A stretch of DNA of 64,000 nucleotides from Candidatus Kuenenbacteria bacterium (GCA_012797775.1 JAAZOM010000022.1:1241-65240); one strand, 5' to 3'. Counted from the first letter of the stretch, positions 2 through 5,666 are shown. Notes: generated from the sequence alone by a model not told the origin. Made by a program: numbers and translations.

Positions 2-622
2 CCATATATACAAGAAGCGGAGTTGGCGCGGCAAATCAAATCACGGCTTCAAACAATCTCGCTTTGCGACGAAATGACCGATTGGATGTTGGAGCGCGTA
101 AAAGAATGGGAATGCGAGGAGAATTCGTCGTCGCAAAGCGAGGTTCAAAATCTTTCCGAAAATATCAAAACGGCAGAAGCGAAAATGGAAAAGTTAGTTT
201 CCACTTATCTTGATGGCAACATTCCAAAACAGACTTATCTCAAAAAGAAAGATGAAATTTTGCTCGCTTCTGCCGTTTTGGAGCAAAAGAAGAAAGATTT
301 TGAAAGCAGGAGAAAAAATTGGGTCGAACCCCTGCGGGAGTGGATTTTAGATACGAAACAGGCCGATTTTTTGGCCAAGTCGGATAATTTCCACCAAATC
401 AAAACATTTGTTCAAAAAATCGGAACGAACCCTCGGGTTCGTAACAAATCCGCCGTCTTTGATTTTTGCCCAGCCAGCCATTTCGCCGCGAAGCGGGGAA
501 TCATTTTGCGGAGCGCGGCCGCCTCGCGGCCGCGCGGAGCAATGCTTTCAAACGCTGAAGTTTCTATTGGCGGAGAGGGAGGGATTCGAACCCTCGGACC
601 CCGTGAAGGGTCAACAACTTAG
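2..622 (+). CDS. C-terminal fragment of a large serine recombinase (integrase/resolvase family). It is 5'-truncated by the window edge, and the ORF reads antisense into the tRNA, so it may be a remnant or pseudogene.
   Basis: The reading frame is open from the first base. The peptide has the coiled-coil tail typical of large serine recombinases (..KMEKLVSTYLDGNIPKQTYLKKKDEILLASAVLEQKK..). The last ~55 nt overlap tRNA-Ser antisense. Confidence 0.35.
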   Translation, partial: PYIQEAELARQIKSRLQTISLCDEMTDWMLERVKEWECEENSSSQSEVQNLSENIKTAEAKMEKLVSTYLDGNIPKQTYLKKKDEILLASAVLEQKKKDFESRRKNWVEPLREWILDTKQADFLAKSDNFHQIKTFVQKIGTNPRVRNKSAVFDFCPASHFAAKRGIILRSAAASRPRGAMLSNAEVSIGGEGGIRTLGPREGSTT

Positions 623-657
623 CAGGTTGCTGCTTTCAGCCACTCAGCCACCTCTCC
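568..657 (-). tRNA. tRNA-Ser (anticodon GCT), 90 nt with a long variable arm and encoded CCA.
   Basis: Folded by hand: acceptor GGAGAGG/CCTCTCC, 3-bp D stem GCT/AGC, anticodon stem GCAAC/GTTGT with loop CTGCTAA, variable arm GACCC-TTCAC-GGGTC, T arm GAGGG-TTCGAAT-CCCTC, discriminator G, then CCA. Confidence 0.85.
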
Positions 658-700
658 ATGTTTAAAAATTAAGGTTATTTATTTTTTTGGTCAATTATCT

Positions 701-788
701 TCGGACCCCGTGAAGGGTCAACAACTTAGCAGGCGTGAACACGACCCTGGGCAGTGTTCACGGCTTTCAGTCACCGAGCCACCTCTCC
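701..788 (-). pseudogene. Truncated, interrupted second copy of tRNA-Ser(GCT). It keeps the acceptor 5' half, D arm, anticodon loop and variable arm, and lacks the T arm and 3' acceptor. The 5' half of the anticodon stem is replaced by a 29-nt hairpin.
   Basis: Near-identical to the intact tRNA from GGAGAGGTGGCT through GGGGTCCGA, and it diverges exactly there. It carries the inserted inverted repeat GTGAACAC-TGCCCAGGGTC-GTGTTCAC. Confidence 0.6.
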
Positions 789-998
789 ATGTTAAAACAT
801 ATTATAATGGGATAAGTATTAAGTATTATGTATTGTGGGGAGAAACTTGCTCCAGCCTCGCCCAGCTGTAGTATTCCCATAATACTTGATGCATTATACT
901 TAATACTATATTTAATTTTGGCCAAAAAGTCAAAGGTACTTTTGGCATTTTTTGCTATTTTATGATAAAATTAAAAAAGAATAATTAATTTTAAAAAT

Positions 999-2249: not shown

Positions 2250-2277
2250 TTGACATATTTTCAAAACCTTGTATAAT
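2250..2277 (+). promoter_or_regulatory. Sigma70-like promoter: TTGACA, 16-nt spacer, then TGTATAAT. It would drive the infA-rpmJ-rpsM.. operon with a ~230 nt leader.
   Basis: TTGACA at 2250-2255 and TATAAT at 2272-2277, preceded by TG. Confidence 0.4.
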
Positions 2278-2839: not shown

Positions 2840-3229
2840 ATGGCTAGAATCGCTGGTGTAAATTTACCCAATGAAAAAAGGCTCGAGATTGGCTTGACCT
2901 ATATATTTGGAATTGGCCGCACGACCTCCAAAAAGATTATTGAGCGACTGGGGCTGGATCCCAATATGAAATGCAAAAATCTCTCCGAAGCAGAGTCCAA
3001 CCAACTCAAAAAAATTATTGAGGCAGATATTAGGACTGAGGGTGAGCTCAAGAGAGAAATTCTCTCGAATATCAAAAGACTAAAAGAAATAAATTGTTAT
3101 CGTGGAGTCAGGCACTCCAGAAGGTTGCCGGTTCGTGGTCAGCGCACCAAGACCAATTCTCGCACCGTCCGTGGCAATGTCCGTCATACCGCCGGATCTG
3201 GTAAAAAACCAGCCGCTCAAAAGACATAA
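2840..3229 (+). CDS. rpsM: 30S ribosomal protein S13.
   Basis: MARIAGVNLP...GLTYIFGIGR..RGVRH. Confidence 0.9.
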   Translation: MARIAGVNLPNEKRLEIGLTYIFGIGRTTSKKIIERLGLDPNMKCKNLSEAESNQLKKIIEADIRTEGELKREILSNIKRLKEINCYRGVRHSRRLPVRGQRTKTNSRTVRGNVRHTAGSGKKPAAQKT

Positions 3230-3253
3230 AATTATTTTATTTAATGTATAACT

Positions 3254-3697
3254 ATGGAAAATAATACTGCTGAGGCGACCATGCCAGAGGCGTCAGAGGC
3301 CAAGGCTCCGGCCAAGAAAAACAGAAAGAAAAAAGTGGTTCCGCGGCTCCTCAAGGGCCGTGGTCAGGCTCACATACAATCAACTTACAACAATACAATT
3401 GTTTCCATTACTGATCAGAACGGTAGTGTTTTGGCCTGGTCTTCTGCTGGTAAGTGCGGTTTTAAGGGTGCCAAAAAGGCTACCCCTTATGCGGCCGGCG
3501 TAGTGGTCAAAGAAGTTATAGACAAATGTAAAGATTATGGTATCAAAGAGGTTGATGTTTTGATAAAGGGCATCGGCCCGGCCAGAGAAGGGGCAATACG
3601 TGCTTTAGCTACTTATGGTGTGCAGATTGCTAGTATCAAGGACGTCACCCCTGTGCCACACAATGGTTGCCGCCCCAAAAAGCCGAGGCGCATTTAA
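3254..3697 (+). CDS. rpsK: 30S ribosomal protein S11.
   Basis: HIQSTYNNTIVSITD..GFKGAKKATPYAA... Confidence 0.9.
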   Translation: MENNTAEATMPEASEAKAPAKKNRKKKVVPRLLKGRGQAHIQSTYNNTIVSITDQNGSVLAWSSAGKCGFKGAKKATPYAAGVVVKEVIDKCKDYGIKEVDVLIKGIGPAREGAIRALATYGVQIASIKDVTPVPHNGCRPKKPRRI

Positions 3698-3705
3698 TAA
3701 TTAAT

Positions 3706-3782
3706 AAGCATTTACTCTGAGCGCAGCGAAGAGTCTCGCACCAAGTCAATTTACGAGACTCTCACTTCGTTCAGGATAAAAC
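3706..3782. promoter_or_regulatory. Structured rpsK-rpsD intergenic leader: a hairpin GAGTCTCG-N16-CGAGACTC followed by TTCAGGATAAAA, the reverse complement of the TTATCCTGAA motif of the dispersed element family.
   Basis: The inverted repeat is visible in the sequence, and it is the only sizeable gap inside the ribosomal-protein operon. Confidence 0.35.
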
Positions 3783-3795
3783 AAGTAAAAGATTT

Positions 3796-4428
3796 ATGGG
3801 TAGAGATATAGGACCAAAAGATAGACAAAGTCGCCGCATTGGAGAAAAGCTTTTCCTCAAAGGCGATCGGGATTTGACCAGCAAAAGCGGGATTGTCAGA
3901 CGCAATTATCCGCCGGGTATGCATGGGCCCAAAGGCTACACCCATCGCGGTAGTGAATACGGACGCCAGTTGATTGCCAAACAAAAAATCAAAAAAATGT
4001 ATCGCTTGAGAGAAAAACAATTTCACAATCTTTTTCTCAAAGCTGGCAAGATGAAAGGCGACGCTAGTAGCAACCTCTTGGTTTTGTTGGAGAGCCGGTT
4101 TGATAATGTTATCTATCGACTAGGCCTAGCCACTTCCAGAGATCAGGCTAGACAATTGGTTTCCCATGGACATTTTATGGTCAATGGTAACAAGATCAAT
4201 ATCCCTTCTTATGAGACAAAGACCAAAGATGTTATTACTGTTCGGGAGAAAAGCAAGAACAACGGCCTCCTTGCCCGTTCTTTAAAAGAATCTGCTGGCA
4301 AAAATATTCCTGCTTGGTTGTCTTTTGACACCTCCAAACCGGAAGCCGTGGTTGTTGACTCTCCCTCCACTGAAGAGTTGGGTTTATTGGCCGATGCCAC
4401 TCTCACCATAGAGTTTTATTCAAGATAA
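3796..4428 (+). CDS. rpsD: 30S ribosomal protein S4.
   Basis: S4 N-terminal region plus the S4 RNA-binding domain (LESRFDNVIYRLGLATSRDQARQLVSHGHFMVNG). Confidence 0.9.
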   Translation: MGRDIGPKDRQSRRIGEKLFLKGDRDLTSKSGIVRRNYPPGMHGPKGYTHRGSEYGRQLIAKQKIKKMYRLREKQFHNLFLKAGKMKGDASSNLLVLLESRFDNVIYRLGLATSRDQARQLVSHGHFMVNGNKINIPSYETKTKDVITVREKSKNNGLLARSLKESAGKNIPAWLSFDTSKPEAVVVDSPSTEELGLLADATLTIEFYSR

Positions 4429-4451: not shown

Positions 4452-5312
4452 ATGCAAACTATACCCACGCCTAGTAATATCGAGTTCAAAAAAGAAACCG
4501 ATTTTCGAGGTGATTTTGTGATTGAACCTCTTTACCCGGGTTATGGTTTGACTATTGGTAACGCCCTGAGGCGCGTTTTACTCTCTTCCATTCCTGGTGC
4601 CGCCATCAGCTCTATTAAAATAAAGGGAGTTGACCATGAGTTTTCCACCTTGCCGTATGTCAAAGAAGATATTGTAGATATTATTTTAAATTTGAAGCAG
4701 GTAAACCTGAAAATTGAAGGAGAAAATGATAATCCTGATGAGCCACTCAAAATCACTATCAGAAAAACTGGTGAAGGAAAAATTACCGCCGGTGACTTTG
4801 ACTGCCCTAGCCAGGTTGTTATCGCCAATAAAAATCTTCATCTAGCTACTCTGACAGACAAAGCCGCCAGTTTTGACCTTGAATGTATTGTGGAAAATGG
4901 TATGGGTTATCTGCCCACCGAAAATCGCCCAACCGGAGTTTTGGATATTGGTCATATGGCCATTGATTCTATTTTTACCCCCATCAACCATGTCAACGTT
5001 AAAACGGAAAATGTGCGCGTCGGCGAGATGACCAACTGGGATAAACTAATTATTTCTTTGGAGACCAACGGCACCGTTACTTGCAAGGAGGCTTTTGAAA
5101 TGGCCGTTTCTATCCTAAAAAATCAATTTGATTCCCTAGTTGTTGGGGCCAAGCCACCCAAAAAAGAAAAAGTTGAGGTGGCTGTAGAATTAGATAAAAC
5201 TGAGCCGGCAAAAGGGGACACAATTGAATCAGAGGAGTTATCCGAAGATGAGTCAACTGAGCCACAGGCCAAAAAGAAAAGGGGCCGGCCCAAAAAAGAA
5301 GAAAATAAATAA
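4452..5312 (+). CDS. rpoA: DNA-directed RNA polymerase alpha subunit. It has the NTD only; the C-terminal domain is replaced by an acidic tail plus an AT-hook-like KKKRGRPKK.
   Basis: Alpha-NTD motifs are present (IEPLYPGYGLTIGNALRRVLLSS). No HhH alpha-CTD sequence is present; the last ~55 aa are low-complexity. Confidence 0.85.
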   Translation: MQTIPTPSNIEFKKETDFRGDFVIEPLYPGYGLTIGNALRRVLLSSIPGAAISSIKIKGVDHEFSTLPYVKEDIVDIILNLKQVNLKIEGENDNPDEPLKITIRKTGEGKITAGDFDCPSQVVIANKNLHLATLTDKAASFDLECIVENGMGYLPTENRPTGVLDIGHMAIDSIFTPINHVNVKTENVRVGEMTNWDKLIISLETNGTVTCKEAFEMAVSILKNQFDSLVVGAKPPKKEKVEVAVELDKTEPAKGDTIESEELSEDESTEPQAKKKRGRPKKEENK

Positions 5313-5315
5313 TTT

Positions 5316-5666
5316 ATGAGACACCAAAAACAACGCACCAAACTTGGTAGAAACGTCGGTTCAAGAAAAGCCCTCATGCGGAGCATGGCTATTTCTTTAA
5401 TTGTACACGAGAAAATTACTACTACTTTGTCCAAAGCCAAAGTTTTGAAGCCCATGGTGGAAAAACTGGTAACTCGAGCCAAGAAAAATGACTTGGCCAG
5501 CCGTCGTTTGTTGATCAGTGCTTTAGCCAAAGAAAAACCAGTCAAGAAACTCCTAGAAGTCACTGGTCCAAAGTATTTAGAAAGAAAGGGTGGTTATTTA
5601 CGCATTATAAAACTAGGTGCTCGTCGAGGGGATGGCTCAGAAATGGCTATTATAGAATTTGTATAA
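5316..5666 (+). CDS. rplQ: 50S ribosomal protein L17.
   Basis: MRHQKQRTKLGRN...LRIIKLGARRGDG. Confidence 0.9.
   Translation: MRHQKQRTKLGRNVGSRKALMRSMAISLIVHEKITTTLSKAKVLKPMVEKLVTRAKKNDLASRRLLISALAKEKPVKKLLEVTGPKYLERKGGYLRIIKLGARRGDGSEMAIIEFV

What the first reader, a model, noticed from the sequence alone, without database searches (positions are those of the whole stretch)
4452..5312. RpoA without a canonical alpha-CTD; C-terminus replaced by an acidic tract plus an AT-hook-like KKKRGRPKK.
The 286-aa RpoA has a normal NTD, but the last ~55 residues are low-complexity (EKVEVAVELDKTEPAKGDTIESEELSEDESTEPQAKKKRGRPKKEENK). None of the helix-hairpin-helix alpha-CTD sequence that contacts UP elements and activators is present. 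The RGRP core is the signature of AT-hook minor-groove binders of AT-rich DNA. In an AT-rich genome this could be a replacement for UP-element recognition. I do not know whether this is lineage-typical or peculiar to this organism.
Basis: partly seen in the sequence, partly recalled or inferred. Interest (0 to 1): 0.5.

Follow-up and report, generated by a model that had tools for sequence, protein, structure and literature searches.

The report
RNA polymerase alpha with AT-hook tail
In this Candidatus Kuenenbacteria genome and a large clade of related ultra-small bacteria, the RNA polymerase alpha subunit has swapped its normally universal folded DNA- and activator-binding end domain for a floppy acidic tail tipped with one strictly conserved AT-hook, which probably holds the enzyme on A/T-rich DNA upstream of promoters.

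Summary
ORF 4452-5312 (+) is the operon-resident rpoA of a Candidatus Kuenenbacteria bacterium (Patescibacteria/CPR).

- **Domain content:** residues 1-228 are a normal alpha N-terminal domain. Residues 229-286 have no alpha-CTD by any test: Pfam at E<=10, a clade-specific CTD HMM (-1 bit), hhalign (probability 0.03%), and an AF2 model with no secondary structure. rplQ starts 4 nt after the rpoA stop, so no CTD can be hidden downstream.
- **Tail anatomy:** an acidic linker followed by K274-KKRGRPKK-282.
- **Lineage-typical:** 84 of the 120 closest homologs (45-100% identity) carry exactly one RGRP, a median of 5 residues from the C-terminus. RGRP is invariant and the flanking K residues are >90% conserved. 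The linker is unalignable but net-negative in 95% of cases, with a median length of 46 aa. Hook codons vary at nearly all synonymous sites, so selection acts on the peptide.
- **Phylogeny:** all hook sequences fall in one NJ clade (137 tips, one CTD). Other Patescibacteria keep the CTD or carry lysine-rich tails. The hook and the CTD never co-occur (0 of 52).
- **Function is inferred, not shown:** two tethered minor-groove readers per RNAP replacing the alpha-CTD-DNA contact, by analogy with the WhiB7 and CarD AT-hooks.
- **Prior reports:** none found in the literature I could search.
- **Verdict:** new variant of a known kind, moderately high interest.

The parts
4452..5312 (+). rpoA, RNA polymerase alpha subunit, 286 aa, including the stop codon
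   Evidence: ORF. TIGR02027 scores 237.2 bits, above its cutoff of 227.8. PDB alpha subunits match at E 5e-55. It is 100% identical to a protein named DNA-directed RNA polymerase subunit alpha [Candidatus Kuenenbacteria bacterium].
4452..5135 (+). alpha N-terminal domain (aa 1-228): dimerisation domain plus insert domain
   Evidence: PF01193 covers aa 25-226 and PF01000 covers aa 55-176. AF2 pLDDT is mostly >90, and the last helix is 211-227.
5136..5270 (+). acidic, intrinsically disordered linker (aa 229-273), which replaces the interdomain linker and the CTD
   Evidence: AF2 gives no secondary structure, with pLDDT <50 for residues 240-269. From F226 the linker is 47 aa with 14 D/E and 6 K/R. 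Among 92 hook-bearing orthologs the linker is unalignable, has a median length of 46 aa (IQR 42-51), and is net negative in 95%.
5271..5297 (+). AT-hook KKKRGRPKK (aa 274-282); the RGRP core is 5280-5291
   Evidence: Sequence read. Pfam PF02178 AT_hook is the only hit on the tail, at E 0.0056 and 16.8 bits against a gathering score of 17.4. RGRP is invariant and the flanking K residues are >=90% conserved in orthologs. Codons differ synonymously between genomes. It is the only K-flanked RGRP in the six-frame translation of the window and of 511 kb of related loci apart from rpoA.
5298..5309 (+). short C-terminal cap EENK after the hook
   Evidence: In orthologs the hook is followed by a median of 5 residues counted from the end of RGRP (range 2-24), usually KK plus 1-4 acidic or polar residues.
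5316..5666 (+). rplQ (L17), the context gene that starts 4 nt after the rpoA stop and leaves no room for a CTD
   Evidence: In all 79 related loci tested, rplQ follows rpoA. In the 31 CTD-less loci the gaps are -35 to 101 nt, plus one of 579 nt with no ORF.
2840..4428 (+). rpsM, rpsK and rpsD, the upstream genes of the alpha operon (context)
   Evidence: The ORF translations are typical S13, S11 and S4 sequences. The gene names come from my reading of the translations and the conserved operon order.

Best explanation
This is the organism's housekeeping RNA polymerase alpha subunit. In it the folded C-terminal domain has been replaced, in an ancestor of a large Patescibacteria clade, by a ~45-residue acidic disordered tether ending in a single canonical AT-hook. 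The alpha NTD assembles the core enzyme as usual. Each RNAP therefore carries two flexible tails that leave the enzyme on its upstream face. The RGRP tip inserts into the narrow minor groove of A/T tracts upstream of the -35 element, as alpha-CTD residue R265 does at UP elements and as the WhiB7 AT-hook does next to sigma region 4. This adds DNA affinity at promoters without any folded domain. The acidic linker probably serves as a spacer and as an intramolecular charge shield that limits non-specific DNA binding, as in HMGA and CarD. The activator-contact surfaces of the alpha-CTD are simply gone, which fits the small regulator repertoire of these reduced genomes. What is shown: the domain loss, the disorder, the motif, its conservation under peptide-level selection, and its clade distribution. 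What is inferred: DNA binding, preference for promoter-upstream A/T DNA, and the role of the acidic linker.
For: - **CTD absence is real, not an artefact:**
- **Conservation:** 84 of 120 nearest homologs carry exactly one RGRP near the C-terminus. The consensus is [KP]KKRGRPKK, with K at -1 and -2 in 78-81 of 84 and at +5 in 78 of 84, inside an otherwise unalignable tail.
- **Selection acts on the peptide, not on DNA or a ribosome-binding site:** Arg codons AGG/AGA/CGC/CGG/CGA/CGT, Gly codons GGC/GGT/GGA/GGG and Pro codons CCC/CCT/CCG/CCA all occur in 9 genomes, and the distance to rplQ varies.
- **Composition and length of the linker are conserved although its sequence is not:** median 46 aa, net negative in 95%, median charge -8.
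- **Mutual exclusivity:** none of 52 CTD-bearing relatives has RGRP.
- **Clade distribution:** all 92 hook sequences fall in one NJ clade of 137 tips whose parsimony root state is 'hook'.
- **Equivalent tails elsewhere:** other CTD-less Patescibacteria alphas end in lysine-rich, H1-like tails. These are the same two interchangeable DNA-binding tail types as in myxobacterial CarD proteins (acidic segment plus RGRP hooks, PMC4374960; the functional equivalence of HMGA-like and H1-like domains is the title of reference 5 of that paper).
- **Direct precedent:** an AT-hook reads an A-tract immediately upstream of -35 within an RNAP holoenzyme in WhiB7 (PMC10245118).
- **Motif match:** Pfam AT_hook is the only family matching the tail.
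Against: - No binding or transcription data exist for any of these proteins.
- The Pfam AT_hook score is just under the gathering threshold (16.8 vs 17.4 bits).
- In the window, 18 predicted intergenic promoters have 66% A+T at -59..-36, against 65% for random intergenic 24-mers, and no longer A/T runs. There is therefore no detectable UP-like signal, although the sample is small and the promoters are only predicted.
- The hook is dispensable in some lineages. Close relatives at 64-69% identity (P0022, P0025, P0031) end in ...SKKEDK without RGRP, and Uhrbacteria and Falkowbacteria-type proteins have acidic-only or K-rich tails. By parsimony the hook was lost about 18 times inside its clade, on a crude NJ tree.
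- A single AT-hook binds DNA weakly on its own (general knowledge of HMGA proteins), so two hooks per RNAP may give only modest affinity.
- G+C content does not differ between hook-bearing and CTD-bearing loci.
Confidence: 0.5

Rival explanations
1. Non-specific DNA or nucleoid tether. The basic tip (AT-hook here, lysine-rich tails in sister lineages) only raises the general electrostatic affinity of RNAP for DNA, for example to aid facilitated diffusion or retention on the nucleoid. It has no preference for promoter-upstream A/T tracts and is not equivalent to UP-element reading.
For: Related lineages use sequence-non-specific K-rich tails or degenerate patches (KKRGRKKK, KKKTRKKK, KKKARKKK) at the same position. 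No A/T enrichment is seen upstream of predicted -35 elements in the window. G+C is the same in all tail classes.
Against: If only charge mattered, RGRP would drift. Instead R, G, R and P are each invariant in 84 of 84 and 22 of 22 sequences spanning 45-100% NTD identity, with synonymous codon turnover. The Gly-Arg-Pro geometry is specifically what fits the minor groove (PMC10245118).
Confidence: 0.25
2. The tail acts mainly through something other than duplex DNA. The acidic tract could be a DNA mimic or autoinhibitory element (like sigma70 region 1.1 or the delta subunit tail), or a docking site for a partner protein. The hook could bind RNA or that partner.
For: Acidic composition and length of the linker are conserved. 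About 20 sequences keep an acidic tail with no basic tip at all, which suggests the acidic part has a role of its own. From general knowledge, some extended AT-hooks bind RNA.
Against: The most conserved element by far is the canonical DNA-type hook with directly flanking K/R residues. No candidate partner is known. The position on the alpha subunit is exactly where a DNA-binding module normally sits.
Confidence: 0.12
3. A stand-alone alpha-CTD or a second, CTD-bearing rpoA elsewhere in the genome supplies the canonical function, and the tail is secondary.
For: Only 64 kb of this genome and ~6.7 kb around rpoA in 31 other CTD-less genomes could be inspected, so most of each genome was not seen.
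Against: No CTD-like ORF was found in the window (tblastn best E 0.1, HMM best E 0.5) or in the 31 CTD-less loci (no hit at E<=1). A CTD that is not tethered to the NTD would not be held at the promoter. The hook is under strong selection regardless.
Confidence: 0.05
4. Functionless remnant or annotation/assembly artefact: a truncated gene with a low-complexity read-through.
For: Low-complexity tails often evolve neutrally. Some lineages have lost the hook.
Against: The same architecture is seen in more than 90 independently assembled sequences from NCBI, JGI, ENA and Logan. The gene ends at a proper stop 4 nt before rplQ. The four core residues are invariant despite synonymous codon turnover.
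Confidence: 0.03

Closest known systems
Canonical bacterial alpha-CTD (Pfam PF03118), the UP-element and activator-contact domain of RpoA
   Same: It sits at the same place in the same protein, on a flexible tether after the alpha NTD, with two copies per RNAP. Its DNA contact is also a minor-groove reading of A/T-rich DNA by an arginine (R265 in E. coli, from established knowledge).
   Different: There is no helix-hairpin-helix fold and no detectable homology. A 9-residue motif replaces a ~75-residue domain. There are no surfaces for class I activators or for sigma region 4. The linker is about three times longer and acidic.
Myxococcus xanthus CarD C-terminal HMGA-like domain, and the histone H1-like equivalents in other myxobacteria
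   Same: It is an RNAP-associated protein with an intrinsically unfolded tail made of an acidic segment followed by RGRP AT-hooks (PMC4374960). In related species the hooks are replaced by lysine-rich H1-like tails, the same AT-hook versus K-rich alternation seen here among Patescibacteria alphas.
   Different: CarD is an accessory factor that binds the beta subunit, has four hooks, and works with CarG at ECF-sigma promoters. Here a single hook is fused to a core subunit and replaces a universal domain.
WhiB7 C-terminal AT-hook (Mycobacterium)
   Same: [quoted passage not shown]
   Different: WhiB7 is an Fe-S regulator bound to sigma-A region 4 and acts at a specific regulon. Here the hook is constitutive on every RNAP and sits on a long tether, so its reach and site choice are looser.
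Eukaryotic HMGA1/HMGA2
   Same: They are disordered proteins with K/R-flanked RGRP hooks combined with an acidic tract.
   Different: HMGA proteins have three hooks with the acidic tail C-terminal to them and are free architectural factors. No common ancestry is implied.
Archaeal RpoD and eukaryotic Rpb3/AC40 (alpha homologues without a CTD)
   Same: They share the NTD fold only, with PF01193 and PF01000 and no alpha-CTD. Weak NCBIfam hits to archaeal subunit D appear.
   Different: The sequence is clearly bacterial RpoA and lies in the bacterial alpha operon. Archaeal and eukaryotic homologues have no AT-hook tail.

Membership tests
Bacterial RNA polymerase alpha subunit (RpoA, TIGR02027) | N-terminal dimerisation domain (PF01193) with an inserted domain (PF01000) | tested here: met
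   PF01193 at E 3.5e-21 and PF01000 at E 1.4e-28. TIGR02027 at 237.2 bits, above its cutoff of 227.8. The AF2 NTD is confident.
Bacterial RNA polymerase alpha subunit (RpoA, TIGR02027) | Encoded in the rpsM-rpsK-rpsD-rpoA-rplQ operon | tested here: met
   Gene order. rplQ follows rpoA in all 79 related loci tested.
Bacterial RNA polymerase alpha subunit (RpoA, TIGR02027) | C-terminal domain (PF03118) joined by a flexible linker | tested here: not met
   No PF03118 at E<=10. The custom CTD HMM scores -1 bit. hhalign probability is 0.03%. Residues 228-286 are unstructured in the AF2 model.
Alpha-CTD (PF03118) | Helix-hairpin-helix fold of ~70-80 residues with the LxLSxRxxNxL and GxGxK motifs | tested here: not met
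   These motifs are nearly invariant in the alignment of Patescibacteria CTDs (A3) and absent from the tail.
AT-hook (Pfam PF02178; Aravind and Landsman 1998 definition as cited in PMC10245118) | R-G-R-P core flanked on both sides by K/R residues | tested here: met
   The motif is KKK-RGRP-KK. The consensus over 84 orthologs is [KP]KK-RGRP-KK.
AT-hook (Pfam PF02178; Aravind and Landsman 1998 definition as cited in PMC10245118) | Profile score at or above the Pfam gathering threshold | tested here: inconclusive
   16.8 bits, E 0.0056, on the 27-aa tail; 14.6 bits on the 57-aa tail. The cutoff is 17.4 bits. It is the only family reported.
AT-hook (Pfam PF02178; Aravind and Landsman 1998 definition as cited in PMC10245118) | Lies in an intrinsically disordered segment | tested here: met
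   AF2 shows no secondary structure, with pLDDT ~59 for residues 270-286 and <50 for 240-269.
AT-hook (Pfam PF02178; Aravind and Landsman 1998 definition as cited in PMC10245118) | Binds the minor groove of A/T-rich DNA | not testable with these tools
   This needs EMSA or footprinting with distamycin competition.
HMGA-like domain of the CarD type | An acidic segment followed by basic RGRP hooks in an unfolded C-terminal region of an RNAP-associated protein | tested here: met
   The linker has a net charge of -8 and is followed by the hook. The CarD description is in PMC4374960.
HMGA-like domain of the CarD type | Several (three or four) AT-hook repeats per chain | tested here: not met
   There is exactly one RGRP per protein in 84 of 84 sequences.

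The most novel reading that the evidence does not exclude
A large part of the Patescibacteria radiation has abandoned the alpha-CTD, which is otherwise regarded as a universal bacterial promoter-recognition and activator-contact domain. In its place are intrinsically disordered, eukaryote-style DNA-binding tails: an HMGA-like acidic tract plus AT-hook in the Kuenenbacteria-containing clade, and histone-H1-like lysine-rich tails that arose several times elsewhere. If so, upstream promoter recognition in these bacteria relies on DNA shape read by a 9-residue motif, and alpha-CTD-dependent (class I type) activation does not exist there.
Probability: 0.45. Interest if true: 0.75.

Novelty: new variant of a known kind. 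Interest (0 to 1): 0.62.

Why it matters
The alpha-CTD is a textbook component of bacterial transcription initiation: it reads UP elements and is the contact point for CAP-type activators. A large, environmentally abundant bacterial clade has replaced it with a disordered tail carrying an AT-hook. This gives a natural experiment on the minimum needed for upstream promoter contact. It predicts a different regulatory logic in reduced-genome episymbionts, with no alpha-CTD-dependent activation. It also provides a compact, transplantable module that can be tested directly in E. coli alpha chimeras. The parallel use of AT-hook and H1-like tails matches what is known for CarD and points to convergent, interchangeable solutions. 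Finally, it is a practical warning for annotation: short RpoA proteins in CPR genomes are genuine, not truncated genes.

Tried and rejected
1. **Frameshift or truncation artefact: rejected.** rplQ starts 4 nt after the stop. All 31 CTD-less loci have rplQ directly downstream.

2. **Divergent but genuine CTD in the tail: rejected.**

3. **CTD encoded separately nearby: not found.** Nothing in the 64-kb window or in the 31 loci. Whole genomes could not be scanned.

4. **Hook conserved because the DNA is a ribosome-binding site or translational-coupling signal for rplQ: rejected.** Synonymous codons vary freely, and the distance from the hook to rplQ ranges from about 15 nt to several hundred.

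5. **AT-hooks being common in these proteomes: rejected.** rpoA carries the only K-flanked RGRP in the window and in 511 kb of related loci.

6. **UP-like A/T enrichment upstream of predicted -35 elements in the window:** no signal (0.66 vs 0.65 A+T). This is uninformative rather than negative, with only 18 predicted promoters and no mapped transcription start sites. A comparison with CTD-bearing genomes was not pursued, because the alpha-CTD also prefers A/T tracts and so no contrast is predicted.

7. **G+C difference between tail classes:** none.

8. **Literature:** searches combining AT-hook, rpoA, alpha-CTD and UP element with Patescibacteria, CPR and Parcubacteria found nothing relevant. 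A 2024 review of Patescibacteria biology does not mention RNA polymerase.

9. **The hook as a relic of the CTD segment around the R265 equivalent:** MAFFT places KKRGRPKK under LSxRxxNAL, but hhalign sees no relationship. I treat this as coincidence until intermediates are found.

Full report
**1. What is there**

The ORF at 4452-5312 (+) encodes a 286-aa protein. It sits between rpsM, rpsK and rpsD upstream and rplQ, rplM and rpsI downstream. It is 100% identical to a database entry named DNA-directed RNA polymerase subunit alpha of a Candidatus Kuenenbacteria bacterium, from a 91.7-kb contig. NCBI places this organism in the Patescibacteria/Parcubacteria group.

- Pfam finds the two N-terminal-domain families, PF01193 and PF01000, and nothing else, even at E<=10.
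- The NCBIfam RpoA equivalog TIGR02027 is passed (237.2 bits against 227.8), but every RpoA model and every solved alpha subunit aligns only up to residues ~224-264.
- The DNA at 5271-5297 reads KKKRGRPKK, followed by EENK and a stop.
- rplQ starts 4 nt later, so a frameshifted or split CTD is excluded.

**2. Is a diverged CTD hiding in the tail?**

No.
- A CTD HMM built from 48 Patescibacteria alpha-CTDs scores the tail at -1 bit.
- A profile-profile comparison of 22 hook tails against 20 CTD regions gives a probability of 0.03%.
- AlphaFold2 with a 41-sequence alignment models residues 1-227 with high confidence. It gives no secondary structure for 228-286, with pLDDT <50 for 240-269.
- No CTD-like ORF exists elsewhere in the window or in the 31 CTD-less loci (~6.7 kb each) from related genomes.

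**3. Is it peculiar or lineage-typical?**

It is lineage-typical.
- Of the 120 closest database proteins (45-100% identity), only 4 carry PF03118.
- Eighty-four of them have exactly one RGRP, a median of 5 residues from the C-terminus. The consensus is (E/D-rich)...[KP]KKRGRPKK(E/D).
- In an alignment of tails alone, the only invariant columns are R, G, R and P, and the only columns >=90% conserved are the flanking lysines. Mean column identity is 27%.
- The linker is conserved in kind but not in sequence: median 46 aa (IQR 42-51), 25% Glu, net negative in 95% of proteins, median charge -8.
- In the window and eight other genomes, the hook codons differ at nearly every synonymous site, while the distance to rplQ varies. 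The constraint is therefore on the peptide, not on the DNA or on a ribosome-binding site.
- The K-flanked RGRP of rpoA is the only one in the six-frame translation of the window and of 511 kb of related loci.

**4. Distribution**

A scan of one genome per species returned 80 rpoA loci.
- 48 have a canonical CTD. Where named, these are Moran-, Doudna-, Lloyd-, Nomura-, Kaiser- and Taylorbacteria and Minisyncoccales.
- 8 have the RGRP hook: Kuenenbacteria, Veblenbacteria, isolate BM507, and a complete 886-kb chromosome.
- 15 have lysine-rich, histone-H1-like tails.
- 7 have acidic-only tails, including Uhrbacteria and Falkowbacteria.

An independent, tail-blind search with the NTD alone against 1.84 billion cluster representatives gave, among the best 150: 91 with a CTD, 25 K-rich, 4 with a hook plus 1 hook-like, and the rest acidic-only tails or fragments.

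On a neighbour-joining tree of the NTD (198 sequences), all 92 hook proteins fall in one clade of 137 tips that contains a single CTD-bearing sequence. Parsimony reconstructs the hook at the root of that clade, with repeated later decay to hook-like, K-rich or acidic-only tails. Over the whole tree the CTD was lost about ten times. The tree is crude, and the sample is biased toward relatives of the query.

The hook and the CTD never co-occur (0 of 52). G+C content does not differ between tail classes.

**5. How it most likely works**

These steps are inferred, not shown. The alpha NTD nucleates core assembly as in all bacteria, which is established knowledge. The two tails leave RNAP on its upstream side, where the alpha-CTDs are normally tethered. 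A 45-residue disordered tether can span the DNA from about -40 to beyond -70. The RGRP tip is the canonical minor-groove reader of A-tracts.

There is a direct structural precedent inside a bacterial initiation complex. [quoted passage not shown]

The closest architectural precedent is M. xanthus CarD. This RNAP-binding factor has an unfolded C-terminal region made of an acidic segment followed by RGRP hooks (PMC4374960). Related CarD proteins use H1-like lysine-rich tails instead. That is the same pair of alternatives found here among Patescibacteria alphas.

I therefore favour a tethered A/T minor-groove contact that replaces the DNA-binding role of the alpha-CTD, with the acidic linker acting as spacer and charge shield. 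The activator-contact role of the alpha-CTD is lost.

**6. Evidence against, and limits**

- No experiment exists for any of these proteins.
- The Pfam AT_hook score is just below threshold (16.8 vs 17.4 bits).
- Eighteen predicted intergenic promoters in the window show no A/T enrichment at -59..-36 over the intergenic background (0.66 vs 0.65). The window has no rRNA operon and only one tRNA gene.
- Several close relatives have lost the hook (P0022, P0025 and P0031 end in ...SKKEDK), so it is not indispensable.
- Whole genomes could not be scanned for a separate CTD.
- A purely electrostatic, non-specific DNA tether remains a serious rival. However, it does not explain the invariance of all four core residues.

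**7. Novelty**

Searches of the held literature found no description of CTD-less or AT-hook-tailed RpoA in Patescibacteria/CPR. Papers in subscription journals outside the library cannot be excluded.

The components are all known: RpoA, the AT-hook, and RNAP-associated AT-hooks. The new element is a core RNAP subunit that has replaced a domain regarded as universal with a hook across a large clade. I class it as a new variant of a known kind, with interest 0.62.

Noticed in passing
window ~700-795 (- strand), next to tRNA-Ser 568-657 (-): A truncated second copy of tRNA-Ser(GCU) lies about 45 nt upstream of the real gene. It keeps the 5' acceptor, D arm, anticodon arm and variable arm, has a ~29-nt hairpin insertion, and lacks the T arm and 3' acceptor. 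ARAGORN and Rfam do not call it.
   Followed up: no
window 2250-2277 (+): A perfect sigma-70 consensus promoter, TTGACA-N16-TATAAT, lies upstream of ORF 2385-2696 at the head of the rpsM-rpoA gene block. A 12-nt pure A/T run sits at roughly -54 to -65. This is anecdotal and not statistically meaningful.
   Followed up: partly
loci L009, L019, L020, L024, L028, L032, L035, L040, L046, L050, L053, L059, L060, L070, L080: Other Patescibacteria RpoA proteins also lack the CTD but end in lysine-rich, histone-H1-like tails (for example ...KKPAAKKKIKKETKKQPKKAASKTKKSKK). These tails are scattered among CTD-bearing lineages on the NTD tree, which suggests several independent replacements.
   Followed up: partly
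alignment A1, columns ~377-392: MAFFT places KKRGRPKK under the LSxRxxNAL segment of CTD-bearing relatives, which is the position of the DNA-contacting arginine equivalent to E. coli R265. This hints that the hook could be a relic of that segment. hhalign finds no relationship.
   Followed up: partly
L036 about 3810-4390: A 579-nt gap without an ORF separates rpoA from rplQ, where other genomes have 2-100 nt. The translated frames show an internally repeated sequence, so it may be an inserted repeat element.
   Followed up: no
protein P0026 (homolog list): Its C-terminus...VIFFFKQKTAYEIYQCDWSSDVCSSDLIV, is unlike any other tail and looks like an assembly chimera or contaminant junction. It was excluded from the analyses.
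   Followed up: no
proteins P0022, P0025, P0031 (64-69% identical to the window protein): These close relatives end in ...SKKEDK. Compared with ...KKRGRPKKEDK in their neighbours, this looks like a short internal deletion that removed exactly the RGRP core.
   Followed up: partly
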